DNA of 64,000 nt from NCBI GenBank assembly GCA_964487045.1, contig CAZAOT010000001.1, positions 151,863 through 215,862 on the forward strand, written 5' to 3'. Within the stretch, counting starts at the first letter, position 1, and each line of letters starts with the position of its first letter. A program made the position numbers and the translations under genes. The notes under the pieces were generated by a model, which saw nothing but the letters and a program-made list of their open reading frames with translations, made no database searches and was not told the origin of the DNA. Positions 868 to 47,292 of the stretch are shown in pieces. This stretch comes from an uncultured Candidatus Saccharibacteria bacterium. GTDB lineage: Bacteria > Patescibacteriota > UBA1384 > DTJR01.

Positions 868-3099
868 ATGAAACAGATCCAGCATAAGTTCACTTTGGCG
901 GGACAAGAAATCTCGCTTTCTTCAGGATTGCTAGCATTTCAAGCTGACGGAGCGGTCGTCGCTCAAGCTGGCGGAACAATGGTGCTTGCTACCTGTGTGG
1001 TTGGCAAAGAGCCGACCGATATTGGATATATGCCCCTAACGATCGATTACGAGGAAAGGTTTTATGCTGCCGGAAAAATTTCTGGCTCGAGGTTTATCAA
1101 GAGAGAGGGCAGACCTTCTGAACAAGCAGTGCTAAATGGCCGAATGATCGACCGACCGATAAGACCGCTTTTTCCAAAGCACTTTAGGCACGAGACTCAA
1201 GTCGTTATCACCGTTTTATCTTTTGATAAAGAAAATGATCCAGATATTCTAGCACTTCTCGCTGCATCTAGCGCAATTAGCCAGTCGATGGCTCCTTTTG
1301 CTGGACCTGTTGGAGGAGTTAGAATTGGAATAGTAGGTGGTGAATTCAAGATCAACCCAACTCGAACAGAGATGCTGGAGAGCGATCTTGATTTAGTTAT
1401 TATTGGTACCAAAGAGCGAATTTTGATGATCGAGGCAGCTGCTAAGGAAGTTTCCGAAGAGAAAGTTATCGAAGCAATTGAGTTTGGCAAGCCGTTCATC
1501 GCTGAAATGATTGATGCTCAAGCGCCATTTCTCAATCCTGACAAACTAACTGCCGAAGACCACACAATAGAAATTCAAGCTCAAGTTAAAGAGCTGATTG
1601 GATCCAGACTTCATCAAACAATGCTTGATCGAGAAAATTCCGAAAAAGAAACATTAGTTGAAGCGCTCAAAGAAGAAGTTCTCACAACCTATGAAGGTAA
1701 GTACAAACAAGCTGATCTAGAAGAAGTTTTTGGAAAGTTTCTAGAAAAGGAAGTCAAAGAAACTATTCTTGCCGATGGAGTTAGGCCAGATGGAAGAAAA
1801 TTAGACGAAGTTAGACCAATTGATGTCAAGGTTGGCTTCTTGCCACAGACTCACGGATCGGGACTATTCACTCGCGGTCAGACTCAATCACTTACAACTG
1901 CTACCTTGGCTAGCCCTGGCATGGAACAATTCATCGACACGATGGAAAAAGAAACGACCAAGAGATATATGCATTTCTACAACTTCCCGCCATACTCAAC
2001 CGGCGAAGTTAAGAGAATGGGTTCAACTAGTCGCCGAGAAATCGGCCATGGCGCCTTGGCTGAAAAAGCCTTAGTGCCAGTACTACCAGACCGAGAATCA
2101 TTTCCTTATACAATAAGACTTGTTTCGGAAATTCTCGCTTCAAACGGATCTTCTTCAATGGCAGCAACTTGTGGTTCAACCCTCGCTCTTATGGATGCGG
2201 GCGTACCAATCAAAGACCCAGTTGCTGGAATTGCCATGGGTATGGTCTCGAGACCAAAATCAGGTGAAAAAGCTCGCCCCGTTAGAGATAACGAGGGTAA
2301 CGATGCGAGTCTTGATGACAATACGCCAACTGATGTTAGTTTAATCTCTAACGGGGTAAAAAATCTGGGATTTGAGCAGGATGATAAGTATGAATATGCT
2401 ATCCTGACTGATCTTCAGGGAGTAGAGGACTTCGGAGGAGATATGGACTTCAAGGTTGCTGGTACTAAAAACGGAATTACCGCTATTCAGCTTGACGTTA
2501 AGATTGACGGACTTTCGATGGAGATGATTAAGTCGACCTTCGAAAAAGCAAAAGTTGGCCGAATGTTTATCATGGGTAAGATGCTCGATGTAATAGCTAG
2601 CCCAAAGACTGAGCTTTCAGAGCTCGCTCCACGAATCATCACCGTTAAGATTAACCCAAGTAAGATTGGCGAACTTATCGGACCGGGAGGAAAGAATATC
2701 CAAAATATCATCCTGCAGGCCGGAGGCAAAGAAGTTGTCGCTGTTGACATTGAAGACGATGGAACGGTTATGATTTCTTCAGCTGATGCTAATGCTGCCG
2801 AAGTAGCTAAGAATTTAGTCGAAGGTCAGACTGTCGAAGCTGAAGTTGGCAAGATTTATGACGGAACAGTTTCCAATATCCAAACCGATCGAAATTCAGG
2901 CAAGGAAATCGGCGCGATTGTTGAGTTTATGCCAGGCAAGGATGGTATGGTTCATATTTCAGAAATCAAAAATGAAAGAATTGAAAAAGTTTCCGATTTT
3001 GTAAAAGTCGGCGACAAGGTCAAAGTCAAAGTTCTCGCTGTTGATCCAGAGCGCGGAAGAGTCTCGCTTTCGATCAAACAAGCACAAAAACCTGAATAA
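868..3099 (+). CDS. pnp: polynucleotide phosphorylase (PNPase): two RNase PH domains, KH and S1 domains
   Basis: 743 aa. It has conserved PH-domain motifs, a C-terminal KH (GPGGKNIQNI) and an S1 domain. Synteny with rpsO. Confidence 0.95.
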   Translation: MKQIQHKFTLAGQEISLSSGLLAFQADGAVVAQAGGTMVLATCVVGKEPTDIGYMPLTIDYEERFYAAGKISGSRFIKREGRPSEQAVLNGRMIDRPIRPLFPKHFRHETQVVITVLSFDKENDPDILALLAASSAISQSMAPFAGPVGGVRIGIVGGEFKINPTRTEMLESDLDLVIIGTKERILMIEAAAKEVSEEKVIEAIEFGKPFIAEMIDAQAPFLNPDKLTAEDHTIEIQAQVKELIGSRLHQTMLDRENSEKETLVEALKEEVLTTYEGKYKQADLEEVFGKFLEKEVKETILADGVRPDGRKLDEVRPIDVKVGFLPQTHGSGLFTRGQTQSLTTATLASPGMEQFIDTMEKETTKRYMHFYNFPPYSTGEVKRMGSTSRREIGHGALAEKALVPVLPDRESFPYTIRLVSEILASNGSSSMAATCGSTLALMDAGVPIKDPVAGIAMGMVSRPKSGEKARPVRDNEGNDASLDDNTPTDVSLISNGVKNLGFEQDDKYEYAILTDLQGVEDFGGDMDFKVAGTKNGITAIQLDVKIDGLSMEMIKSTFEKAKVGRMFIMGKMLDVIASPKTELSELAPRIITVKINPSKIGELIGPGGKNIQNIILQAGGKEVVAVDIEDDGTVMISSADANAAEVAKNLVEGQTVEAEVGKIYDGTVSNIQTDRNSGKEIGAIVEFMPGKDGMVHISEIKNERIEKVSDFVKVGDKVKVKVLAVDPERGRVSLSIKQAQKPE

Positions 3100-3120
3100 A
3101 AAACACTAGAAAAGAGAAAG

Positions 3121-3155
3121 AGCCGCTATGTCGAATGACGTAGCGGCTCTTGGTG
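3121..3155. terminator. Bidirectional hairpin terminator between pnp (+) and the convergent GC-rich gene (-)
   Basis: AGAGCCGCTA-n12-TAGCGGCTCTT stem-loop. Confidence 0.45.
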
Positions 3156-3167
3156 GTGAGGAGCGGA

Positions 3168-4235
3168 CTAGCCCCAACTGATCTTAAGAGCCAGGCGACT
3201 CCTGCGATGCGCAAATGCACTGAAAACCTTTGATAGAGCCTCTGGAACATTAAAGGTTGTTACAGTGCGTTCGCAGTAGAACGCCAGATTCTGACCGTAA
3301 TGGCTGCAGTCAGTATGTGCAGCTAACTCGATCATATCCGTCAGAGAGCGACTGACGCTCGTCCGACTTTCGACCGACGTATAGATTCCGTAGATTGTGT
3401 CTGGAACATCAAGCTCGCGCAGTGTCGCGAACAAGGTCCTAGCGTCGTAAGTAGCACAATTACCGAGCTCGCGTATCTCGTTGCAGAGCAGATCGAGTCG
3501 CTCGGCGGGATCCTCAGGGAGGGGTGCAGGTGTGTCAAAGCAAGGCTGATGCAGTTCGGACCATGCCGCTACTGCGAGGAAAGCAAGAGTCCACCTGGGC
3601 TTCTTGATCAGGGAGTCTTGGACGATGATATAGATAGAACCATCCTCCCTGAACTCGAGATCCTGCAGGCTCTTGTAGGCGTCCTGCAGGAGACCGATCG
3701 CATCCACGTATACGGGGCTGGGTCCAGTCCCACACTGGATGCTCTCGTACTTGGGCCAGCTCTCATCGATACAGAGCTGGTAGAGCTTGCGAATGGGGAT
3801 CTGCTCCAGGTACGGAATCTCAAGCAGGAGTTTATTAAGCTCCGTAGCCTGTTCCTGGGTCATGTGGTTCAAATACCACTGCTGGGCGGCCCAGATAACA
3901 TCGTTCCACTCGTAGCTCGGGTCCGAAAACGGGCCTTGGCAATGCCAGCCGTACTGCGAAGTAGCGAGCTTGATCGCTTGTTCGATCACCATAGAACTCC
4001 TGTGAATCGAATCCACGAGCACAACCACGGTCCGTCTATTGAGCTGTCTTCCGAACAAGATGAGCTGCTCGGCAGGAAACCGCTCCATTTCGGGAGCATT
4101 CGACAGCAGGATCTCGAGCTGCTGCTCGTAGTAGGTCTGGTCGCCGTCTTTGGGCTGATCGGTCATTTCATGTACCTGCTTTCTATCGGCGTTCTTGTTG
4201 AAGCCAGCTACTCGGGCATGTGCAGGTCGCGCCAT
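3168..4235 (-). CDS. hypothetical protein in a GC-rich island (start uncertain; the alternative Met gives ...4169)
   Basis: Long ORF in ~56% GC DNA flanked by ~40% GC genes. No recognisable domain. The antisense ORF 3549..4241 is taken as a GC artefact. Confidence 0.5.
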   Translation of the reverse strand: MARPAHARVAGFNKNADRKQVHEMTDQPKDGDQTYYEQQLEILLSNAPEMERFPAEQLILFGRQLNRRTVVVLVDSIHRSSMVIEQAIKLATSQYGWHCQGPFSDPSYEWNDVIWAAQQWYLNHMTQEQATELNKLLLEIPYLEQIPIRKLYQLCIDESWPKYESIQCGTGPSPVYVDAIGLLQDAYKSLQDLEFREDGSIYIIVQDSLIKKPRWTLAFLAVAAWSELHQPCFDTPAPLPEDPAERLDLLCNEIRELGNCATYDARTLFATLRELDVPDTIYGIYTSVESRTSVSRSLTDMIELAAHTDCSHYGQNLAFYCERTVTTFNVPEALSKVFSAFAHRRSRLALKISWG

Positions 4236-4879
4236 GCCTGAGCTGCGAGCATGATCGGAGGTAAGACATGGAGATAGTGAATCTCGTGCATAATGCCTTG
4301 ACTACGAAGATATAGAATTCCCTCCGCCCGATTCCATTCTCGCCTGAAAGCAGGAGAGAGAACAAGGTAGTACAGCTCAGGGAGTCTAAGAGAAAGAACG
4401 CTTCTATCACCATCGGTTGATGTGAAACCACTGAAGCTAGTCGTCCCAGTGCTCGAGGAGCACTTGAGAAGAGTCGTGAGCGGGAAGCGGTCAGTTGTCG
4501 GAGCGCCAAGAAGCAAGTTGCGTTCCTCTTCATCCAACTCCTGTACCGCTTCGTAGAGAAGCTTGAGCGTGGGGGCGATCACGGCCATCTTCGAGAAACG
4601 GATGGCGACGACTGCTTCCCACCACTTGTCGGCGTAGATGAAGTCATCTATGCCTTCGTGCCTGACTCGGTAGTAGAATGCTCCGCCGAACGGTTCAGGT
4701 ATGATAGTGGTGGTGGTATTCAGCAGCACCTGCAAGACCTCTTCGACAGGGTTTAGCGAGGTCCTGACCAGGATACAGCTGGACAAGCCAGCTTCAACGC
4801 CTGCTTCAGCGAGCTCGGTAGCGGTGATCTCTCGTCTGCCGAGCGCTAGATCAAGAAGCGTCTGTCGGAATTGTTCCAT
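4208..4879 (-). CDS. hypothetical protein in a GC-rich island (start set at MEQFRQ..., behind GGGAGGA RBS)
   Basis: The track ORF 4208..4984 was shortened to the Met preceded by GGGAGGACATTGACATG. The leader upstream is conserved with that of the next gene. Confidence 0.5.
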   Translation of the reverse strand: MEQFRQTLLDLALGRREITATELAEAGVEAGLSSCILVRTSLNPVEEVLQVLLNTTTTIIPEPFGGAFYYRVRHEGIDDFIYADKWWEAVVAIRFSKMAVIAPTLKLLYEAVQELDEEERNLLLGAPTTDRFPLTTLLKCSSSTGTTSFSGFTSTDGDRSVLSLRLPELYYLVLSPAFRREWNRAEGILYLRSQGIMHEIHYLHVLPPIMLAAQAWRDLHMPE

Positions 4880-4950
4880 GTCAATGTCCTCCCATTTTGG
4901 GTGGTTTCTAATGCAAGATTGCATAAGGGGAAATAATATCATTTTTGTAA
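4880..4950 (-). promoter_or_regulatory. Conserved leader copy A, including the palindrome ATGCAAGATTGCAT (4911-4924)
   Basis: About 70 nt aligns with 6104-6175 (copy B): ...CCATTTTGG..TTCTAATGCAAGATTGCATAAGGGGAAATAATATCATTTT.. It contains a 6-2-6 inverted repeat ATGCAA-GA-TTGCAT. Confidence 0.45.
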
Positions 4951-5026
4951 AAAAAAAGAAAGCCACCCAGAGTGCTTGGGGCACGGAGGGTGGCTTGAAA
5001 TCAGTCGCGCAAGTGGACTTGGCCAG

Positions 5027-6103
5027 CTAGTCGGGGTGCTTGGCGAGCCACTGGTTCAGGGCTTCGAACACCTGAATCCAGGGCGAGCCTGCGAGGATAT
5101 AGACCTCGCCGGGCGTGTCGTGGTACCAGATCTTCATGCTGCCGTCAGCTTGAAGATCGCACTTCACGACAGAAGGAGCGATTTCCTCCATGATCTGGAG
5201 GGTATTCAGCACAACCGTCTTGTCGTTCAGCTGGGCCTCGACGTGATCAGACAGACCAGCTATGCGAGCTAGACTACGGATCTCGTAGTAGTCCGGATCC
5301 TCCTGGTCCGGCACCTCATTGAGGTAGTCGAGAAGCGTCTGCATCGTAGGCGCTACCGGCAAGTCGCCTGGTGCGTGCTTAATCGCCCAAAGACGGGCGA
5401 CGAGCAGAACGATGTAGTAGCGCGCCATACTGAGATTGTCCTCACGGATCTCCCAGTGCCCGAGTGGCGTCTCCAGGGAAATGTGCCCTGTCGAGATCTC
5501 GCAAGGGAAAGCGAAGCCGAGGACAAGCTCGATGGCCTTCTCGGCGCTGATGGTCGTATAGCCTTGGCAGTCGCCGTGCACGAAGTGCAGCTTGAAGGTC
5601 CCGCTCTCACAGAGGCGCAGTGCCTCGTTGATGGGGAAATTCTGTAGATCTGCCCACTTCTTGATCTCATCTAGATCGCAGGTGCGGCCAGCTAACTCGA
5701 GCATGCGCTCGAGTTCGTCACGTGATTGCGGAGGTATTTCAGTACCTTTCTGCCCTGTAGGGGCGGGGAAGATTTCGGTCGGGACTGAAATGCCCCGCCT
5801 GATGCAGATGGCGACAAGTGCGTCGCGCCATCGTCCAACCTCGAGCAATGTGCTTTCAAGCAAAATCGCACTAGGCTCCGTTGCCGGAAAACCCATGCGG
5901 TTATTGTAGAGAGCGTCGGCAAAAAGCGTTCGAATCGACCAAGCCTTCTGTTTGGAATTGGGCAGTTTGATCTCCGGGGGAAAGCCAGCCGCGATGCCTA
6001 CTTCGATGATGCGCTCCAGTTGGAACGCTCCACTTTCGCAGGCCTCGCGGCAAAGCTCAGAATACTCCTGCTCGGCTCGCGATTGTTGTTCTCTAGCATC
6101 CAT
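5027..6103 (-). CDS. hypothetical protein in a GC-rich island
   Basis: 358-aa ORF in ~57% GC DNA. The start ATG is preceded by GGAGAAAGTTGACAT, the same RBS context as the neighbouring gene. No recognisable domain. Confidence 0.55.
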   Translation of the reverse strand: MDAREQQSRAEQEYSELCREACESGAFQLERIIEVGIAAGFPPEIKLPNSKQKAWSIRTLFADALYNNRMGFPATEPSAILLESTLLEVGRWRDALVAICIRRGISVPTEIFPAPTGQKGTEIPPQSRDELERMLELAGRTCDLDEIKKWADLQNFPINEALRLCESGTFKLHFVHGDCQGYTTISAEKAIELVLGFAFPCEISTGHISLETPLGHWEIREDNLSMARYYIVLLVARLWAIKHAPGDLPVAPTMQTLLDYLNEVPDQEDPDYYEIRSLARIAGLSDHVEAQLNDKTVVLNTLQIMEEIAPSVVKCDLQADGSMKIWYHDTPGEVYILAGSPWIQVFEALNQWLAKHPD

Positions 6104-6175
6104 ATGTCAACTTTCTCCATCTTTTGGTATCTCAACAAGATTGCATGAGGAGTAATGATACCTCTATTTTGGCCT
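6104..6175 (-). promoter_or_regulatory. Conserved leader copy B (CAAGATTGCATGAGG core at 6136-6150)
   Basis: See copy A. This half-palindrome is degenerate on the left arm. Confidence 0.4.
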
Positions 6176-6286
6176 GAGGTCAAGGCGAAGAGAGGATTAT
6201 TATTGACCCCAGTACAAATCTTTTCTGGCTTATTGATTTACATTCAATCACGCCAGAAGCAGATAGTACGGGGCAGGCAACTAAGG

Positions 6287-6315
6287 TTGACGAGTTTATA
6301 AATTTGTGCTATACT
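6287..6315 (+). promoter_or_regulatory. sigma70-like promoter (TTGACG-17-TATACT) for udg
   Basis: -35 at 6287-6292, 17-nt spacer, -10 at 6310-6315, 35 nt before the TTG start of udg. Confidence 0.45.
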
Positions 6316-6349
6316 AACCCTAAGAGTTTTAGTTCTCTAGGATTTTAAA

Positions 6350-6910
6350 TTGGATAAAGAAGCGCAAATTTCATTGCTTTGTGGACAAGTTAAGGAGTGC
6401 CGTAAGTGCCCCTTATATAAATTTGCCAAAAATCCAGTTCCTGGCGCAGGATCGGTTAATACCGAAGTGATGTTTATCGGGGAAGGACCTGGAGAGAAAG
6501 AAGATGAACTAGGACTGCCTTTTGTCGGGAGAGCAGGGAAATTGCTCGACGAAATGTTAGAATCGATTGGTTTAAAAAGAGAAGAAATTTATATTGCCAA
6601 CGTAGTTAAGCACCGACCGCCAGGTAATCGTGATCCCAAACCGGAAGAAGTAGAGGCTTGCTGGCCATATCTGGAAGAGCAGATCAAAATTATCAATCCA
6701 AAATTAATCGTTTGTCTTGGCCGCCATAGTTTAGGAAGATTTTTACCAAATGTAGGACCAATTTCCCAAGTGCATGGCCGATGTTTTAAAAAAGGTGACC
6801 AGGCTTATATGGCTTTATATCATCCGGCAGTCGGACTTTATAACGGCGGAATGCGCGAAACGTTATTTAACGATTTTAAAAAAATAAAAATTGCTATTAG
6901 CAAAATATAA
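6350..6910 (+). CDS. udg: uracil-DNA glycosylase, family 4 (Fe-S type); TTG start
   Basis: GEGPGEKEDELGLPFVGRAGKLLDEML matches the family-4 UDG motif GE(A/G)PG...G.PFVG.AG.LL. An N-terminal C..C..C cluster is present, and the characteristic HPS/HPA..GLY... end. Confidence 0.85.
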   Translation: MDKEAQISLLCGQVKECRKCPLYKFAKNPVPGAGSVNTEVMFIGEGPGEKEDELGLPFVGRAGKLLDEMLESIGLKREEIYIANVVKHRPPGNRDPKPEEVEACWPYLEEQIKIINPKLIVCLGRHSLGRFLPNVGPISQVHGRCFKKGDQAYMALYHPAVGLYNGGMRETLFNDFKKIKIAISKI

Positions 6911-6948: not shown

Positions 6949-8856
6949 ATGAACAAACAGGAAGAAACTAAAAAACCGCAGGCTCCGCAAAGGATGACTG
7001 CGTATCACGCCTCGCTTGATGGATTTAATGCGCCAAATAGGCCGCAGCAAAATCAGAATCAAAGACCACAGCGTCGGGGGTCATTTTTCGCTAAGAAAGA
7101 AGGCTCTGATAATCGCCCGGCTCCTAGAAATGACAGACCGAGGCAGCAGCAAATGAAACATAGAGCTGACCAAGTGGTTAGCTTCAAGGCTTCTAAAAAC
7201 CTAAAACTTTGTCACCTTGGCGGACTCGAGACAGTCGGCAAGAACTGCTCATTTTTAGAGTATGGTAATGATATTCTCGTTCTCGATCTAGGTTTCAGCT
7301 TTCCCGATGCTGATATGCCAGGAGTTGATTATGTCGTCCCTGACGTCGGATATTTAGTAGAAAATAGATCTAGAATCAAAGGAATTTTACTTACCCATGG
7401 TCACATGGACCATATCGGGGCAATTCCTTATGTTATTGAAAAACTCGGCTCGCCAACAATCTACGGAACCAATCTTACAATTGGAATTCTCAAGGAAAAG
7501 TTGGAAGAGTTTGGCTTATCAAATCGAGTCAAAACAGTCGTGATCAATCCGGAGGAAGATGTGCTCAGACTTGGCATCTTCACGGTTAGCTTTTACAGAG
7601 TAAATCACAATATTCCGGATACGGTTGGACTTGTTATTGATACACCAGACGGAAAAGTTGTGCACACAGCTGACTTTAAGTTTGATTTGACTCCGATTAA
7701 CGAGCCGGTTATCGACCTTGGCAAGATTGCCGAGATTGGTAAGAGCGGTGTACTTGCACTTCTGATGGACTCTACCGGAGCCCGAAACTCCGGTTATGCT
7801 ATCTCAGAGAGTGAAATTAAAACAAACCTAACTGAGCTTTTCCAAAAAGCTCAAGGCAGAATTTTCATTGCTTCATTTTCAACTCTGATTTCTCGAATTC
7901 AACAAATTATTGATGTAACGGCTTCTGTTAATCGCAATTTGACTATTACCGGGCGATCGATGATTTCGACGATTGAAGTAGCTTCAAAGCTTGGATATTT
8001 GAAGGTTCCGGAGAATTTAATTATTTCTCCCCAAAAAGCTGCTAAATATCCAGATGACAAGATAGTCGTGCTTTCTACCGGAACTCAAGGGGAAGACGCT
8101 TCAGCATTAACCCGAATGAGTCGAGGGGAGCATAAATTCTTCAAGATAAGACGTGGCGATACCGTAGTTCTATCAAGCTCGATTATCCCTGGCAACGAAG
8201 GATCTGTTATCGAAGTATATGACAATCTGCTTCGCGCAGGGGCAAAAGTAATCGATTATAAACAAATGGACATTCACACTTCTGGACACGCTCATCAGGA
8301 AGAACTTAAGACCATGATCAGGTTGGTTAATCCTAAATACTTTATGCCGGTTCATGGTAATCGCTACATGAGAGAAGCTAACGCTGATCTTGCTAGGTCA
8401 CTAGGCTATGAAGAAGACAAATTGATTTTGGTAGATGACGGAGAGGTTGTTGAATTAAACAACGAAAGGGCATCAGTACTAAAACCGAGAATTCAAACTT
8501 CTCTCGTACTTGTCGATGGACTTGGTGTTGGCGATGTTGGAAACATTGTTATTCGCGATCGACAGGCGATGGCTGAAGGTGGAATTTTCGTGATAATTCT
8601 GACCGTCGATCATCGAACAGGTGAAATAATCACTAGCCCAGACATCATCTCGCGAGGTTTTGTCTATATGAGAGCGGCGGAAAACCTTATCCACCGAGCT
8701 CGCGCCGAGGTTAGATCTATCTTCAAGCATCATGTCTCGCACAAACCAGTTGACCTTCAATTCATCAAAACGGTCTTGAGGGAAGAAATCGGCGAATTCT
8801 TGTATGAAGAGACGAAGCGCCGACCTATGGTGATACCGGTAATCATAGAGGTCTAA
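6949..8856 (+). CDS. rnj: ribonuclease J (metallo-beta-lactamase/beta-CASP RNase) with an ~85-aa Q/R/P-rich N-terminal extension
   Basis: HGHMDHIGAIP MBL motif and the beta-CASP and C-terminal domain layout typical of RNase J. Confidence 0.9.
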   Translation: MNKQEETKKPQAPQRMTAYHASLDGFNAPNRPQQNQNQRPQRRGSFFAKKEGSDNRPAPRNDRPRQQQMKHRADQVVSFKASKNLKLCHLGGLETVGKNCSFLEYGNDILVLDLGFSFPDADMPGVDYVVPDVGYLVENRSRIKGILLTHGHMDHIGAIPYVIEKLGSPTIYGTNLTIGILKEKLEEFGLSNRVKTVVINPEEDVLRLGIFTVSFYRVNHNIPDTVGLVIDTPDGKVVHTADFKFDLTPINEPVIDLGKIAEIGKSGVLALLMDSTGARNSGYAISESEIKTNLTELFQKAQGRIFIASFSTLISRIQQIIDVTASVNRNLTITGRSMISTIEVASKLGYLKVPENLIISPQKAAKYPDDKIVVLSTGTQGEDASALTRMSRGEHKFFKIRRGDTVVLSSSIIPGNEGSVIEVYDNLLRAGAKVIDYKQMDIHTSGHAHQEELKTMIRLVNPKYFMPVHGNRYMREANADLARSLGYEEDKLILVDDGEVVELNNERASVLKPRIQTSLVLVDGLGVGDVGNIVIRDRQAMAEGGIFVIILTVDHRTGEIITSPDIISRGFVYMRAAENLIHRARAEVRSIFKHHVSHKPVDLQFIKTVLREEIGEFLYEETKRRPMVIPVIIEV

Positions 8857-8992: not shown

Positions 8993-9020
8993 AAGCTCCT
9001 TGATTAAAAGGAGCTTTTTT
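8993..9020 (+). terminator. rho-independent terminator after rnj
   Basis: AAGCTCCTT-gattaaa-AGGAGCTTTTTT. Confidence 0.6.
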
Positions 9021-9645
9021 GGTATATTGTCCGCTTACAGCGATACACTCTAGCGAGGAGCTGAGAACCTTGATTCTGAACACAGTAATCCCCACACTTC
9101 TTGTGGTTGTCGTGCTCCTCAATCAGTGGGCATACATCCGCAAGATCCGGCACCAGACTCTCCCGAGCGGAGTGACTTGGCTGGTGTGGTCCTTCGTGGC
9201 CTGGGTGATGTTTTACTCCCAGCTCAAAGAAAAGGGCTTTGCCAGTTCATGGATGTTTTTGGCCTATGCGATCGGAGCATTGATCGTTTTGCGTGCTACC
9301 ATCAAGGAAGGCAAGTTCGAGTGGTATCCTATCCACAGGATTTGTCTGACGCTTGCTGGAGTCGCGCTCGTCATCGCTATTTGCCTCAGCGGTAAGGCTG
9401 GGCTATGTGTCAACGTGACCGCCCATCTCATCGGTACTGCACCGCTGTGGAACAAGATCTGGAGCAGACAAAGTCGCGAGCCGCTTAGTTGTTGGTTTGT
9501 CTGGCTGTTTTGCTCTGGTTCCAATCTGCTCTTGGCGATATTCGCACACAACCTACTTATCGCCCCGATTTACTATGCAAGTCACAACGTTGTCATGGTC
9601 AGCTTGCTGCTCTGGAAGCAGCCGAAAGGACTGCCAAGTGGGTAA
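9019..9645 (+). CDS. hypothetical polytopic membrane protein (GC-rich segment)
   Basis: 208-aa ORF with about 6 hydrophobic helices. Local GC is ~52% against ~40% background. Confidence 0.4.
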   Translation: MVYCPLTAIHSSEELRTLILNTVIPTLLVVVVLLNQWAYIRKIRHQTLPSGVTWLVWSFVAWVMFYSQLKEKGFASSWMFLAYAIGALIVLRATIKEGKFEWYPIHRICLTLAGVALVIAICLSGKAGLCVNVTAHLIGTAPLWNKIWSRQSREPLSCWFVWLFCSGSNLLLAIFAHNLLIAPIYYASHNVVMVSLLLWKQPKGLPSG

Positions 9646-16545: not shown

Positions 16546-17421
16546 CTACTCGAGCCAATCGCGCATCCGAGCCATCGTTTGATCGATGGCGTTGTTGGTG
16601 GGGATCTTGCCCTGTGGGTCGGGATACCCGAGGTACTGGCAAGTTTCCTCGTGCGACCAGCTGCATATTAGCTGTCGAAGCGCGACGTACAGTGCGCAAA
16701 AACGTCCCATCTGACTGATCCGCCAGACATGGTAGAATCCGATCGCATTTTCGGAACAATGAACGTACTCGGCCTCATTGTCAAAGCGTTCGTCTGGGTG
16801 AAACTGGCTCTCGCAGTAGTTCTGGGCGAGAGTTGTCAGTAAGCCATCTGCGATGACTTGCTTGCGACAATCGGGGCAGGAAGCGAGTGCTTGGTAGGCA
16901 CGTTCGCCTTGTCCCCGCCTAATCTGGCTCTGACATAAGATCCACAGCCAGTGCCAGCAGTCGCCACCTAACCATTCGGGTTCTTCGATGTCAACTCCTC
17001 CTGGGTATGGGTGGTCAAGGTTATAGTATCCAAATGAAAGATGGGGGCGGTCACAGAGATGCTGCGCTTCTTCTACAGTGAATTCAGCCGGGCCGTTGAA
17101 AGCGAAATGTACGTCATTCAGGTCGCCGATGAGATCGGCGAAAAGCTCCATGACAGGAGAAGCCAGAATTAGCCGCTCGGTCAGGCCACGCAAGCGCGCA
17201 CTGGCGCGAGCCATGGGCCAGAAAAAGCCAAGTCGTCTTGTCGCCGAGATAGTCGGCTTGTGGTGGCCGAGCCCCTGGTCACCGGTCTTAGCCCGAACGA
17301 ACGCTTCTCGGAATGCTTCCACTGGCGCCCCATTCATTGCTAAGTCATGGATGACATACCAGGCGAAGTGGATCGGAGTTGTAAACCCGTTTTCTAGATT
17401 CTCGCTTTGCACGTGCATCAC
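16546..17421 (-). CDS. hypothetical protein (GC-rich island)
   Basis: 291-aa ORF in ~57% GC DNA. No recognisable domain. The hairpin AAGCCGCCTC-aaa-GAGGCGGCTT lies just past its 3' end. Confidence 0.5.
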   Translation of the reverse strand: MMHVQSENLENGFTTPIHFAWYVIHDLAMNGAPVEAFREAFVRAKTGDQGLGHHKPTISATRRLGFFWPMARASARLRGLTERLILASPVMELFADLIGDLNDVHFAFNGPAEFTVEEAQHLCDRPHLSFGYYNLDHPYPGGVDIEEPEWLGGDCWHWLWILCQSQIRRGQGERAYQALASCPDCRKQVIADGLLTTLAQNYCESQFHPDERFDNEAEYVHCSENAIGFYHVWRISQMGRFCALYVALRQLICSWSHEETCQYLGYPDPQGKIPTNNAIDQTMARMRDWLE

Positions 17422-37585: not shown

Positions 37586-38194
37586 CTATTTGGCTACTTC
37601 ACTAATAGTGATCGATGCTGTCTTTGCTGTTGAGTCGGTTGAGAACAATACTTCCCAATCAACATGTGCCATTTCTGTAGTTCTGACGTTGTCAGTGTTT
37701 AGCTGCTCCTTGGTCACAAAGCCGGCTCTTTGAAGATCCTTCTGATATTTTTCATAAGCATCAGAATCAACCTGTTCAAATGTGATTGTCCAGCCCGCAG
37801 GCTCTGTGGTTGCAAGTGATCCCGTGACATTACCATAGGTAAATTTTGGTACTACACTCGGTGTGCTATCTGGCCATTTTGATGATCCAAGCTCCACACT
37901 TCCGTCCTCTCCGGTCACTTTGACAGAGTTGTCACTCGAATTTATATCAACTTTTCCGCCTGTTGCGGCTCCGATAAGACTTTCTGCACCCTTTTCAGCA
38001 ATCTTGCCAGCGAAGTATTTTGTTGCGATATAACTACCAATTCCTAGTACCGCTAAAATTATAACTATTATAATAATTGCAGTGGTGCAGCCCTTATTTC
38101 CACCACCTGAACTTTGCGATGAACTAGTGCTAGATGACGCAGCTGGTTTAGCAGGTTCTGCTTTTGGTTGCTCGGTCTTAATTTCTTCAGCCAT
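37586..38194 (-). CDS. membrane-anchored extracytoplasmic protein of unknown function
   Basis: N-terminal Ser/Ala-rich linker, a single TM (IIIIVIILAVLGIGSYIA), and a ~130-aa domain. Confidence 0.55.
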   Translation of the reverse strand: MAEEIKTEQPKAEPAKPAASSSTSSSQSSGGGNKGCTTAIIIIVIILAVLGIGSYIATKYFAGKIAEKGAESLIGAATGGKVDINSSDNSVKVTGEDGSVELGSSKWPDSTPSVVPKFTYGNVTGSLATTEPAGWTITFEQVDSDAYEKYQKDLQRAGFVTKEQLNTDNVRTTEMAHVDWEVLFSTDSTAKTASITISEVAK

Positions 38195-47217: not shown

Positions 47218-47292
47218 CGGCCTGTAGCTCATTGGTAGAGCGACGCTCTTATAAGGCGTATGTAGATGGTTCGATCCCATCCAGGCCGACCA
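47218..47292 (+). tRNA. tRNA-Ile (anticodon UAU as encoded), CCA encoded
   Basis: CGGCCTG / CAGGCCG acceptor, anticodon stem ACGCT/GGCGT (one G.U), loop CTTATAA, T-arm GATGG-TTCGATC-CCATC. Confidence 0.75.

What the first reader, a model, noticed from the sequence alone, without database searches (positions are those of the whole stretch)
4880..6175. Two adjacent GC-island genes carry a duplicated ~70-nt leader containing a 6-2-6 palindrome (ATGCAA-GA-TTGCAT) and identical RBS/start context
Regions 4880-4950 and 6104-6175 align over about 70 nt (e.g. CCATTTTGG..T.TC.AA..CAAGATTGCAT.AGG.G.AAT.ATA.C..ATTTT). Both genes start GGAG(G/A)A..TTGACAT-ATG. The proteins behind them are not detectably similar to each other. 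A shared promoter/operator cassette has therefore been placed in front of different genes. The near-perfect palindrome ATGCAAGATTGCAT is a typical dimeric transcription-factor site. The second copy keeps only the right half-site intact.
Basis: seen in the sequence. Interest (0 to 1): 0.6.

Follow-up and report, generated by a model that had tools for sequence, protein, structure and literature searches.

The report
Conserved promoter-leader heading variable island genes
The repeated ~65-base stretch is a real, evolutionarily conserved promoter plus structured mRNA leader that drives each transcription unit of a small, fast-changing, GC-rich gene island in a group of uncultured ultra-small (Patescibacteria) bacteria. 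Its "palindrome" behaves more like an RNA hairpin at the start of the message than like a protein-binding site.

Summary
The regions upstream of two minus-strand genes (starts 4879 and 6103) align over about 70 nt (score 37; shuffles 14.4±2.2; 0/2000). Each is the other's best match in the window.

The element is not window-specific. I found eight distinct versions in related Patescibacteria contigs, always in the island between pnp and udg. All share:
- a -35 TTGAYY, a 17-nt spacer and a -10 TAYNNT;
- a hairpin starting 5-7 nt after the -10;
- CACCC…GGGAGG pairing across the ribosome-binding site;
- TTGACA just before ATG.

Leaders are 61-79% identical. Four-fold degenerate sites in flanking housekeeping genes are only 35-45% identical, and the downstream proteins are barely alignable or different. 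The leader is therefore under purifying selection.

The hairpin arms change in a compensatory way (ATGCA/TGCAT, ATGCT/AGCAT, TAGCG/CGCTA, G·U pairs), and loop length varies from 3 to 6 nt. This favours a 5'-terminal RNA stem-loop (mRNA protection and translation control) over a dimeric-factor operator.

One relative keeps the leader with only a 26-codon ORF. Another lacks the island entirely.

Verdict: a new, lineage-restricted member of a known kind of cis-element. The context is interesting; the function is inferred, not shown.

The parts
6178..6183 (-). -35 box TTGACC of the g3 promoter
   Evidence: The promoter scan gives TTGACC-17-TATCAT, 10/12. The same -35/17-nt/-10 geometry is kept in 7 of 8 leader versions while the spacer sequence varies.
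6155..6160 (-). -10 box TATCAT of the g3 promoter
   Evidence: It aligns without gaps to the TAYNNT of all other leaders.
6100..6160 (-). Leader copy 2 (upstream of g3): -10, hairpin 1, anti-SD/SD pairing, TTGACAT, ATG
   Evidence: Covariance model R1 scores it 60 bits, E 4e-10.
6131..6149 (-). Hairpin 1 of copy 2 (CUCA-U-GCA AUCU UGU-UGAG). The 6-2-6 palindrome is degenerate, but an alternative 4+3 bp stem remains.
   Evidence: RNAfold gives -4.4 kcal/mol on the sense strand and -2.1 on the antisense; 4.6% of shuffles fold as well. The same CUCAUGCA 5' arm with a GAG 3' partner is seen in L095.
6113..6129 (-). Anti-SD (UACCA) paired with the SD region (UGGAGAA) of copy 2
   Evidence: Helix 2 of the consensus structure. 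The pair at columns 40/54 is A-U here and C-G in all the others.
5027..6103 (-). g3, a 358-aa modular protein of unknown function (modules M1-M2-M3)
   Evidence: ORF. No Pfam, NCBIfam or PADLOC hit. Only 3 true relatives among 1.84e9 representatives. AF2 of residues 128-358 gives pLDDT 78 and two tandem alpha/beta modules.
4960..4996 (-). Intrinsic terminator of g3 (stem), followed by a T-run at 4950-4958
   Evidence: Inverted repeat I11. Fold is -34 kcal/mol for the region, z -3.7. It is homologous to the terminator before leader B in L005, with a compensatory A-T to G-C change.
4933..4941 (-). Extended -10 (TG-A-TATTAT) of the g2 promoter. There is no -35; the terminator T-run lies there instead.
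   Evidence: It aligns with the -10 of the other leaders.
4874..4938 (-). Leader copy 1 (upstream of g2)
   Evidence: R1 scores it 83.6 bits, E 7e-15.
4908..4927 (-). Hairpin 1 of copy 1. It contains the palindrome ATGCAAGATTGCAT (4911-4924).
   Evidence: RNAfold gives -5.5 kcal/mol; 0.3% of shuffles fold as well.
4888..4904 (-). Hairpin 2 of copy 1: CCACCCA (anti-SD) paired with UGGGAGG (SD)
   Evidence: MFE and centroid structure. Consensus helix 2 has 93% of cells paired.
4877..4892 (-). GGAGGA-CA-TTGACATG: SD, spacer and start codon of g2
   Evidence: GGAG-N4-TTGACA is found only at leaders, in the window and in all fetched loci bar one chance hit.
4208..4879 (-). g2, a 223-aa protein with no homologue in 5.8e9 proteins other than itself
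   Evidence: It has a weak collinear similarity to g3 residues 1-245.
3168..4166 (-). g1, a 332-aa protein, second gene of the g2 operon (41-nt gap, no leader)
   Evidence: It is 40% identical to L005 d242 over the N-terminal part, and its C-terminal module relates to L005 b228.
3118..3151 (-). Terminator at the end of the island (after g1), convergent with pnp
   Evidence: Inverted repeat I6, 15-nt arms, 93% complementary. A T-run follows on the minus strand.

Best explanation
The two ~65-nt copies are two instances of one conserved sigma-70-type promoter plus 5'-untranslated leader. This module heads every transcription unit of a small accessory, GC-rich island inserted between pnp and udg in a narrow clade of Patescibacteria.

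**How it probably works.**
- Transcription most likely starts 7-9 nt after the -10 (inferred).
This probably shields the 5' end from 5'-end-dependent decay (RppH/RNase J type).
- A second weak hairpin pairs a 16S-tail-like CACCC with the strong GGGAGG ribosome-binding site. This would tune or gate translation initiation.
- The invariant TTGACA before the ATG is part of the same selected unit. Its role is unknown.

**Why there are two copies.** The island has two operons that both descend from an old duplication. The module is kept by selection while the cargo genes diverge, shuffle modules, are lost or are replaced.

**What is shown:** the repeat, its conservation, the promoter geometry, and the conserved base-pairing potential with compensatory changes.

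**What is inferred:** the transcription start, the RNA-level function, and the effect on stability and translation.
For: 1. **The repeat is real.** Score 37 against 14.4 +/- 2.2 for shuffles, 0/2000.
2. **Eight distinct versions exist.** They are win_g2, win_g3, L005_A (identical to L009_A), L005_B, L009_B, L010 (identical to L092), L090 and L095. Covariance-model scores are 39-84 bits. Nothing else scores in the window or in the 21 more distant UDG-bearing loci searched, L011-L030.
3. **Purifying selection.** Leaders are 61-79% identical between genomes. In those genomes the 4-fold sites of udg, pnp and rnj are 35-45% identical. The cargo proteins are 24-40% identical or unrelated.
4. **Promoter footprint.** The -35 TTGAYY/TTGAAT, an exactly 17-nt spacer of variable sequence, and the -10 TAYNNT are present in 7 of 8 leaders. 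The eighth has a TGn extended -10.
5. **Hairpin 1 sits at a fixed distance from the -10 in all 8.**
   - Each folds better than 95-99.9% of shuffles.
   - On the alignment 89% of cells pair, against 34-58% when partners are slid. The covariation score is 0.22 against 0.11 for shuffles, 4/500.
   - The arms differ: A-U to U-A, AUGCA/UGCAU to AGCG/CGCU with a symmetric 1-nt loss on both arms, and C to U giving G.U in L090.
   - The sense strand folds as well as or better than the antisense in 7 of 8 leaders, by up to 4.7 kcal/mol.
6. **Loop length varies** (3, 4 or 6 nt) and the loop sequence is not conserved. This fits a structural hairpin, not a spaced dimer site.
7. **The SD is paired to CACCC in every version.** One pair changes on both sides, C-G to A-U in win_g3.
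8. **RNase J is encoded next door**. 5'-end accessibility governs RppH/RNase J-dependent decay: BsRppH needs at least 2 unpaired 5' nt, and 5' stem-loops stabilise ompA, aprE and ermC-type mRNAs (review PMC3997798).
9. **Natural variants.** L090 keeps promoter, leader and terminator around a mere 26-codon ORF. L094 lacks the island and the leader altogether.
Against: - No transcription start has been mapped. If transcription starts elsewhere, the hairpin is not 5'-terminal.
- There are only 8 sequences from a narrow clade, so covariation statistics are weak. The control notes warn that related sequences can beat shuffles without any structure.
- Hairpin 1 is short (-4 to -10 kcal/mol) and degenerate in win_g3.
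- A symmetric DNA site would also keep complementarity if its factor co-evolved.
- In L095 the antisense strand folds slightly better (-6.9 against -6.5).
- Helix 2 rests mostly on invariant sequence (CCC/GGG), which says little either way.
- The strictly conserved TTGACA before the ATG is unexplained by this model.
Confidence: 0.55

Rival explanations
1. The palindrome is the operator of a dimeric transcription factor. It overlaps the transcription start and would repress both operons of the island together.
For: A perfect 6-2-6 dyad lies at 4911-4924. It sits just downstream of the -10, a classic repressor position. The half-sites TATGC...GCATA recur in win_g2, L005_A, L005_B and L009_B. In L095 the antisense strand folds as well as the sense strand.
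Against: - Half-site spacing differs: N5 in L005_A, N6 in L005_B of the same genome, and N3-like in L095.
- The arms in L010 and L090 are a different sequence (TAGCG/CGCTA) but still complementary. L090 has a G.U that is a mismatch in DNA symmetry.
- win_g3 has lost one half-site yet its leader is otherwise conserved.
- There are no other sites in 64 kb.
- No HTH or other DNA-binding domain is detected in any island protein.
Confidence: 0.2
2. The leader is mainly a translational switch, such as an RNA thermometer or other sensor. Its active part would be the weak CACCC/GGGAGG hairpin with its conserved A.A mismatch; hairpin 1 would be accessory.
For: The SD is paired in the MFE or consensus structure of every version. 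The helix is weak and carries an internal mismatch, as in temperature-melting SD hairpins.
Against: There is no Rfam thermometer or riboswitch match. The helix is almost invariant, so its pairing is untested by covariation. In L010 the loop is 11 nt longer. The leader is too short (about 45-55 nt) for a ligand pocket.
Confidence: 0.12
3. The repeated leaders are recombination or junction sequences of a cassette-exchange system. That would explain why the cargo differs in every genome.
For: Cargo and module order differ between genomes while the leader and the internal terminator persist. One genome has an 'empty socket' (L090) and another an empty site (L094).
Against: No integrase, recombinase or transposase lies in any flank. 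Copies within a genome are only about 73-77% identical with at most 11-12 nt exact runs, which is poor substrate for homologous exchange. There are no attC-like paired sites. The proteins are absent from phage, plasmid and viral collections.
Confidence: 0.08
4. The repeat is a functionless remnant of a tandem duplication, or a chance similarity.
For: g2 and g3 look like very old paralogues, so their upstream regions share ancestry.
Against: The similarity is far above chance. It has been retained at 61-79% identity across species whose neutral sites are saturated. It has even been retained where the cargo was deleted.
Confidence: 0.03

Closest known systems
5'-terminal stem-loop mRNA stabilisers (E. 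coli ompA and papA leaders; B. subtilis aprE leader, ermC, SP82; reviewed in PMC3997798)
   Same: A short hairpin is predicted at or within a few nt of the 5' end. A strong ribosome-binding site lies a few tens of nt downstream. The host encodes RNase J. The structure, not the sequence, is conserved.
   Different: No sequence relation to any of them. The transcription start and the stabilising effect are unproven here. The module is duplicated and tied to one accessory island in uncultured Patescibacteria.
STAB-SD / SD-dependent stabilisers (B. thuringiensis cryIIIA; my own knowledge, not checked in a paper here)
   Same: A near-perfect SD (GGGAGG) sits in a short leader, which could hold a ribosome or 30S subunit and block 5'-to-3' decay.
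   Different: Here the SD is the genuine start-site SD, and it is partly paired to an upstream CACCC.
SD-sequestering RNA thermometers (ROSE, fourU)
   Same: A weak hairpin with an internal mismatch covers the SD.
   Different: No Rfam match. It has neither the fourU nor the ROSE signature. Temperature response is untested.
Palindromic operators overlapping +1 (LacI/PurR-type 14-16 bp dyads)
   Same: A 14-bp dyad lies immediately downstream of the -10 in one copy.
   Different: Spacing and arm sequence are not conserved. No cognate regulator and no regulon sites were found.
Integron platform (Pc promoter serving exchangeable cassettes), as an analogy only
   Same: A fixed expression platform at a fixed chromosomal site with variable, foreign-looking cargo.
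   Different: There is no integrase and no attI/attC. The promoter-leader is repeated per operon rather than single.

Membership tests
5'-terminal stem-loop mRNA stabiliser | Hairpin begins within about 0-4 nt of the transcript 5' end | not testable with these tools
   The transcription start is not mapped. From the conserved -10, the stem starts 5-7 nt after the hexamer in all 8 versions. This predicts 0-3 unpaired 5' nt.
5'-terminal stem-loop mRNA stabiliser | Stem maintained by structure (compensatory changes), with loop and arm sequence free to vary | tested here: met
   Arms are ATGCA/TGCAT, ATGCT/AGCAT, TAGCG/CGCTA, UAGCG/UGCUA and CUCAUGCA/UGCAAGAG; loops are 3-6 nt. 89% of cells pair against 34-58% for slid controls. 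There are few sequences, so the evidence is modest.
5'-terminal stem-loop mRNA stabiliser | Lengthens mRNA half-life; effect depends on 5'-end-dependent RNases | not testable with these tools
   Experimental. RNase J is encoded at 6949-8856.
Operator of a dimeric transcription factor | Dyad-symmetric site with fixed half-site spacing | tested here: not met
   The gap between the conserved half-sites is 5, 6 or 3 nt, and differs between the two leaders of L005.
Operator of a dimeric transcription factor | Half-site sequence conserved among sites and orthologues | tested here: inconclusive
   TATGC/GCATA is shared by 4 versions. It is replaced by TAGCG/CGCTA in L010 and L090, and one half is lost in win_g3.
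Operator of a dimeric transcription factor | Further sites in the genome (a regulon) and a cognate regulator gene | tested here: not met
   No other site lies in the 64-kb window. No DNA-binding domain was found in island proteins. The rest of the genome was not available.
Any described RNA family (Rfam 15) | Covariance-model match at or near the gathering score | tested here: not met
   In the E-value search of 2900-6500, no hit overlaps either leader. The nearest is a sub-threshold L31-leader hit at 6167-6194 on the opposite strand (20 bits against a gathering score of 33).
Intrinsic terminator / transcription attenuator | GC-rich hairpin followed directly by a U-run | tested here: not met
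   Hairpin 1 is followed by AGAAAC / AUGAAU / GGAAAC. The terminator scan reports nothing at the leaders.
SD-sequestering RNA thermometer | SD paired in a weak, mismatch-containing hairpin | tested here: met
   CACCC(A)/(U)GGGAG with an A.A mismatch is seen in the MFE or consensus structures.
SD-sequestering RNA thermometer | Temperature-dependent opening | not testable with these tools
   Experimental.
Integron-like cassette platform | Adjacent tyrosine-recombinase gene and attI/attC sites | tested here: not met
   The flanks carry only rpsO, pnp, udg, rnj, ftsK and recJ-like genes.
Leaderless mRNA / conserved upstream ORF starting at the ATG inside hairpin 1 | ATG present and reading frame conserved | tested here: not met
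   The ATG is absent in L010 and L090. Elsewhere the frame stops after 2, 4 or 5 codons, or runs into the main ORF (read from the sequences).

The most novel reading that the evidence does not exclude
The pnp-udg site in this Patescibacteria clade is a dedicated 'expression socket'. It would consist of a selected promoter, a structured leader and a terminator, and would persist even when empty (L090). It would serve to express a fast-shuffling set of GC-rich, foreign-looking modular ORFan proteins. These proteins might be acquired from, or aimed at, high-GC host bacteria. On this reading the leader is the constant part of a previously undescribed gene-diversification locus of episymbiotic bacteria.
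Probability: 0.15. Interest if true: 0.7.

Novelty: new member of a known kind. Interest (0 to 1): 0.42.

Why it matters
Patescibacteria (CPR) have almost no characterised regulatory elements and no genetic toolbox. This is a compact, natural promoter-leader module of about 90 nt whose functional parts are marked out by evolution: -35, -10, 5' hairpin, anti-SD/SD and start context. It could be tested as an expression cassette. It could also be used to study mRNA protection in an RNase J-based organism.

The module also flags a hypervariable accessory locus. Its ORFan proteins have only a handful of relatives among billions of sequences. Such a locus is the kind of place where host-interaction or conflict genes of episymbionts would be expected.

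If the function is only ordinary promoter and UTR activity, the finding is a tidy but minor annotation.

Tried and rejected
- **Rfam.** An E-value search over 2900-6500 found no family at the leaders.
- **Strict leader pattern.** It gave 0 hits in GTDB species genomes and in JGI metagenomes. The relaxed pattern gave 0 hits in IMG/VR. In JGI metagenomes the relaxed pattern gave 4 hits: 2 real (L090, L092) and 2 chance hits inside a coding region (L091, L093).
- **Domain searches.** Pfam, NCBIfam and PADLOC gave nothing on any island protein from the window, L005, L007, L010 or L011.
- **Word-indexed protein searches.**
  - g3 found itself plus one fragment.
  - g1 found itself plus one relative.
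  - g2 found only itself.
- **Full HMMER search.** It gave 3 true relatives plus a spurious PAN-repeat eukaryotic protein, which I rejected.
- **Phage, plasmid and viral collections.** No relative of g3 was found.
- **Structure.**
  - The full-length AF2 model was poor (pLDDT 57) and its Foldseek hits were meaningless.
  - The model of residues 128-358 was better (pLDDT 78). It gave only weak tandem PAS-GAF-PHY-like hits (E > 1e-3, TM < 0.2), so I make no fold assignment.
- **Two leader subtypes.** I considered a split by the heptamer after the -10 (TTCCYCT against TACTCCT). Overall identities do not support a clean split: win_g2 is closest to L005_B at 79%, and these two also share the homologous upstream terminator.
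- **Other readings considered and rejected.**
  - A leaderless or upstream-ORF reading of the ATG inside the hairpin.
  - Pairing between TTGACAU and the 5' arm AUGCAA, because there is no covariation in L010 or L005_A.
  - An attenuator, because there is no U-run.
- **Literature.** A search on GC-rich or hypervariable islands in Saccharibacteria returned nothing relevant.
Full report
**1. What is in the window**

The finding lies in a three-gene, minus-strand island. It sits between pnp (868-3099, +) and a family-4 uracil-DNA glycosylase gene, udg (6350-6910, +), which is followed by RNase J. The island genes are:
- g3: 5027-6103, 358 aa
- g2: 4208-4879, 223 aa
- g1: 3168-4166, 332 aa

The island is 53-57% GC in a 41% GC window. 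Its GC3 is 0.61-0.69, against 0.32-0.40 for pnp, udg and rnj. g3 ends in a strong terminator (4960-4996 plus a T-run). g2 and g1 are 41 nt apart and end in a second terminator (3118-3151). The island therefore has two transcription units, each preceded by one copy of the repeated leader.

**2.

- The two upstream regions give a local alignment score of 37. 2000 dinucleotide shuffles gave 14.4 +/- 2.2 and none reached 37. Each region is the other's best match in the whole window.
- From the -10 to the ATG they are 73% identical.
- The 14-nt palindrome is exact at 4911-4924 and unique. Looser matches are at chance level.
- The core CAAGATTGCAT and the start context GGAG-N4-TTGACA occur only at the two leaders.
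- One small correction: g2 starts at 4879.
- One qualification: g2 and g3 show a weak but collinear similarity (24% over 169 aa; z 4.5; 2/1000 shuffles). Short DNA repeats lie at the same offset as the leaders. They look like very old paralogues.

**3. Relatives**

The island proteins are nearly orphans.
- Word-indexed searches of 5.8e9 proteins found one fragment related to g3, one relative of g1 and nothing for g2.
- A full HMMER pass over 1.84e9 representatives found three true relatives of g3.

Their contigs were decisive.
- **L005/L006 and L009** carry the same neighbourhood (ftsK, rnj, udg | island | pnp, rpsO, recJ-like). Their island has five genes in two operons.
- A UDG-based scan of GTDB genomes placed the organism among Patescibacteria. 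The nearest named hit is a Candidatus Saccharibacteria MAG at 76% identity. The scan also gave **L010**, with a different three-gene island.
- A relaxed leader pattern found **L090** and **L092** in JGI metagenomes.
- UDG cluster members gave **L094** and **L095**.

Every island operon in these loci is headed by the same leader. There are eight distinct versions, scoring 39-84 bits with covariance model R1. Nothing else scores in the window or in the 21 more distant UDG-bearing loci searched, L011-L030. L011 has a GC-rich gene at the site but no leader.

**4. Anatomy shown by comparison**

- **Promoter.** A -35 (TTGACC, TTGATC, TTGATT or TTGAAT), an exactly 17-nt spacer of free sequence, and a -10 (TAYNNT). 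win_g2 lacks the -35 because a deletion brought the upstream terminator next to it, but it has a TGn extended -10.
- **Pyrimidine-rich heptamer** after the -10 (TTCCYCT, TTTTCCT or TACTCCT).
- **Hairpin 1.** It starts 5-7 nt after the -10, with 5-8 bp and a loop of 3-6 nt.
- **Anti-SD/SD pairing.** CACCC(A), then a variable loop, then (U)GGGAGR, which is the ribosome-binding site.
- **Start context.** Two free bases, then invariant TTGACA, then 0-3 nt and the ATG.

**5. Selection**

Between the window, L005 and L010:
- housekeeping proteins are 82-92% identical;
- their four-fold degenerate sites are only 35-45% identical, which is essentially saturated;
- the leaders are 61-79% identical;
- the cargo proteins are 24-40% identical or not alignable.

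The cargo proteins are built from a few module types, which I call M1, M2, M3, MR and g1N. These modules are fused or split differently in each genome. The leader is thus the most conserved part of the island, which argues for function.

Two natural variants sharpen the picture. L090 keeps promoter, leader and terminator around only a 26-codon ORF. L094, whose UDG is at least 90% identical to the window's, has pnp and udg 78 nt apart with no island and no leader.

**6. Hairpin or operator?**

Evidence for an RNA hairpin:
- The arms of hairpin 1 are ATGCA/TGCAT (win_g2, L005_B), ATGCT/AGCAT (L005_A), TATGC/GCATA with a 6-nt loop (L009_B), UUAGCG/CGCUAG (L010), the same with a G.U pair (L090), CUCAUGCA/UGCAAGAG (L095), and a degenerate CUCA-GCA/UGU-UGAG (win_g3).
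- Complementarity is kept through changes on both sides, including a symmetric loss of one base from each arm in L010 and L090.
- Spacing and loop sequence drift.
- Each hairpin folds better than 95-99.9% of shuffles.
- On the alignment 89% of cells pair, against 34-58% for slid partners. The covariation score is 0.22 against 0.11 for shuffles, 4/500.
- The sense strand folds as well as or better than the antisense in 7 of 8 leaders.

A dimeric protein site would need constant spacing and conserved half-sites. Neither is met. No other sites and no regulator were found. I therefore favour an RNA stem-loop.

Caveats: there are only eight related sequences, the stems are short, and no transcription start has been mapped. 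An operator keeps about 20% of my belief.

**7. Likely mechanism**

With the start placed by the -10, the transcript begins at the base of hairpin 1. 5'-end-dependent decay needs unpaired 5' nucleotides: B. subtilis RppH needs at least two. 5' stem-loops are known stabilisers of ompA, papA, aprE and ermC-type mRNAs (review PMC3997798). RNase J is encoded right beside the island.

The second helix pairs the SD with a mimic of the 16S 3' tail. One pair changes on both sides, C-G to A-U in win_g3. It could tune or gate initiation.

The invariant TTGACA between the SD and the ATG remains unexplained.

**8. Comparison with known things, and novelty**

There is no Rfam family here. The element is not a terminator or attenuator, a leaderless start or a conserved uORF. 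It is not an integron-like junction, because there are no recombinases and the copies are too diverged.

It works like a 5' stem-loop / strong-SD stabiliser leader, possibly combined with an SD-occluding hairpin. By sequence it belongs to no described family. I rate it a new, lineage-restricted member of a known kind.

The more unusual aspect is the context: a selected 'expression socket' at a fixed site, serving foreign-looking, fast-shuffling ORFan genes in episymbiotic-type bacteria. That reading is speculative (probability about 0.15).

**9. Cargo structure**

AF2 of g3 residues 128-358 (pLDDT 78) shows two tandem alpha/beta modules with the same order of elements: helices, beta-hairpin, helix, three strands, long C-terminal helix. 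Foldseek against the PDB gave only weak tandem PAS-GAF-PHY-like matches (E > 1e-3, TM < 0.2), so no fold or function is assigned. Homologous modules also occur on high-GC contigs in other gene contexts: L004 lies next to a carbamoyltransferase-like gene (judged by eye from the sequence, not tested), and L007 has them as separate small genes. This is compatible with acquisition from a high-GC lineage.

Noticed in passing
window 3168-6103 (-); L005 6443-9852; L010 6329-7695; L007: The island proteins form a tiny family of modular ORFans. About 110-125-aa modules (e.g. '...ARYYxVxLVARLWAIKHAP', '...WxRVxxALxxRRxxLxIxW', N-terminal 'YYEQQLEIL') are fused, split and reordered differently in each genome. 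GC3 is 0.61-0.69 against 0.32-0.40 for the neighbours. There are no Pfam, NCBIfam or PADLOC hits.
   Followed up: partly
L090 7940-8200: An 'empty socket'. The promoter, leader and a terminator are retained between udg and pnp, but the cargo is only a 26-codon ORF (8026-8106).
   Followed up: partly
L094 3998-4075: A close relative (UDG at least 90% identical) has pnp and udg 78 nt apart, with no island and no leader. It also has no GC-rich gene between rnj and ftsK. Both GC-rich insertions of the window are therefore accessory.
   Followed up: partly
window 4950-4996 and L005 7833-7880: The terminators just upstream of the internal leaders are homologous between genomes (TTCAAGCC[A/G]CCCTCCG...CTCTGGG[T/C]GGCTTT). 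They carry a compensatory A-T to G-C change in the stem. In the window a ~45-nt deletion removed the -35 region that follows the terminator in L005.
   Followed up: yes
L010 7770-7800 (-) and L090 7945-7975 (+): A dyad TTCTC-N10-GAGAA brackets the -35 box of the leader promoter in both genomes; the arms extend to 8-10 nt. No equivalent is seen in the window or in L005.
   Followed up: no
L005 7937-7952; L009 8599-8614; window 6147-6162 (-): In three leaders the -10 box is embedded in a dyad: GGAGTA-CAAT-TACTCC is perfect in L005_B, 5/6 in L009_B and 4/6 in win_g3. Its meaning is unknown.
   Followed up: no
window 6318-6342 (+) and the udg upstream region of L005, L010, L011, L090, L094 and L095: The udg 5' region CTAAGAGTTTTAGTTCTCTAGG, directly after its -10, is nearly invariant in all relatives, including those without the island. 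It can form a short hairpin (AGAG/CUCU). 5'-proximal hairpins may be a general habit of mRNAs in this lineage.
   Followed up: no
window 9019-9645 (+), 16546-17421 (-), 37586-38194 (-): Other GC-rich patches of the window also hold ORFs with no Pfam hit. Their upstream regions show their own extended -10 boxes and hairpins or anti-SD pairings. They do not match the leader model R1.
   Followed up: partly
L004 1-1343: A 63%-identical homologue of g3 modules 2-3 lies on a 57.5% GC metagenomic contig. It is followed by a terminator and a gene that looks, by eye and untested, like an aspartate/ornithine carbamoyltransferase. This is a different genomic context and possibly the kind of lineage the modules came from.
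   Followed up: no
window 4877-4924 (-); L095 149-200 (-): The ATG inside hairpin 1 is in frame with the main start (15 extra codons) in win_g2 and L095. It opens 2-5-codon mini-ORFs in other leaders and is absent in L010 and L090, so it is probably not a conserved coding feature.
   Followed up: yes
window 47218-47292 (+): A tRNA-Ile with anticodon UAU, an uncommon way of reading AUA in bacteria.
   Followed up: no
window 6167-6194 (+): A sub-threshold Rfam hit to the L31-Firmicutes ribosomal leader (20 bits against a gathering score of 33; E 0.58). It lies between the divergent g3 and udg promoters and is most likely chance.
   Followed up: no
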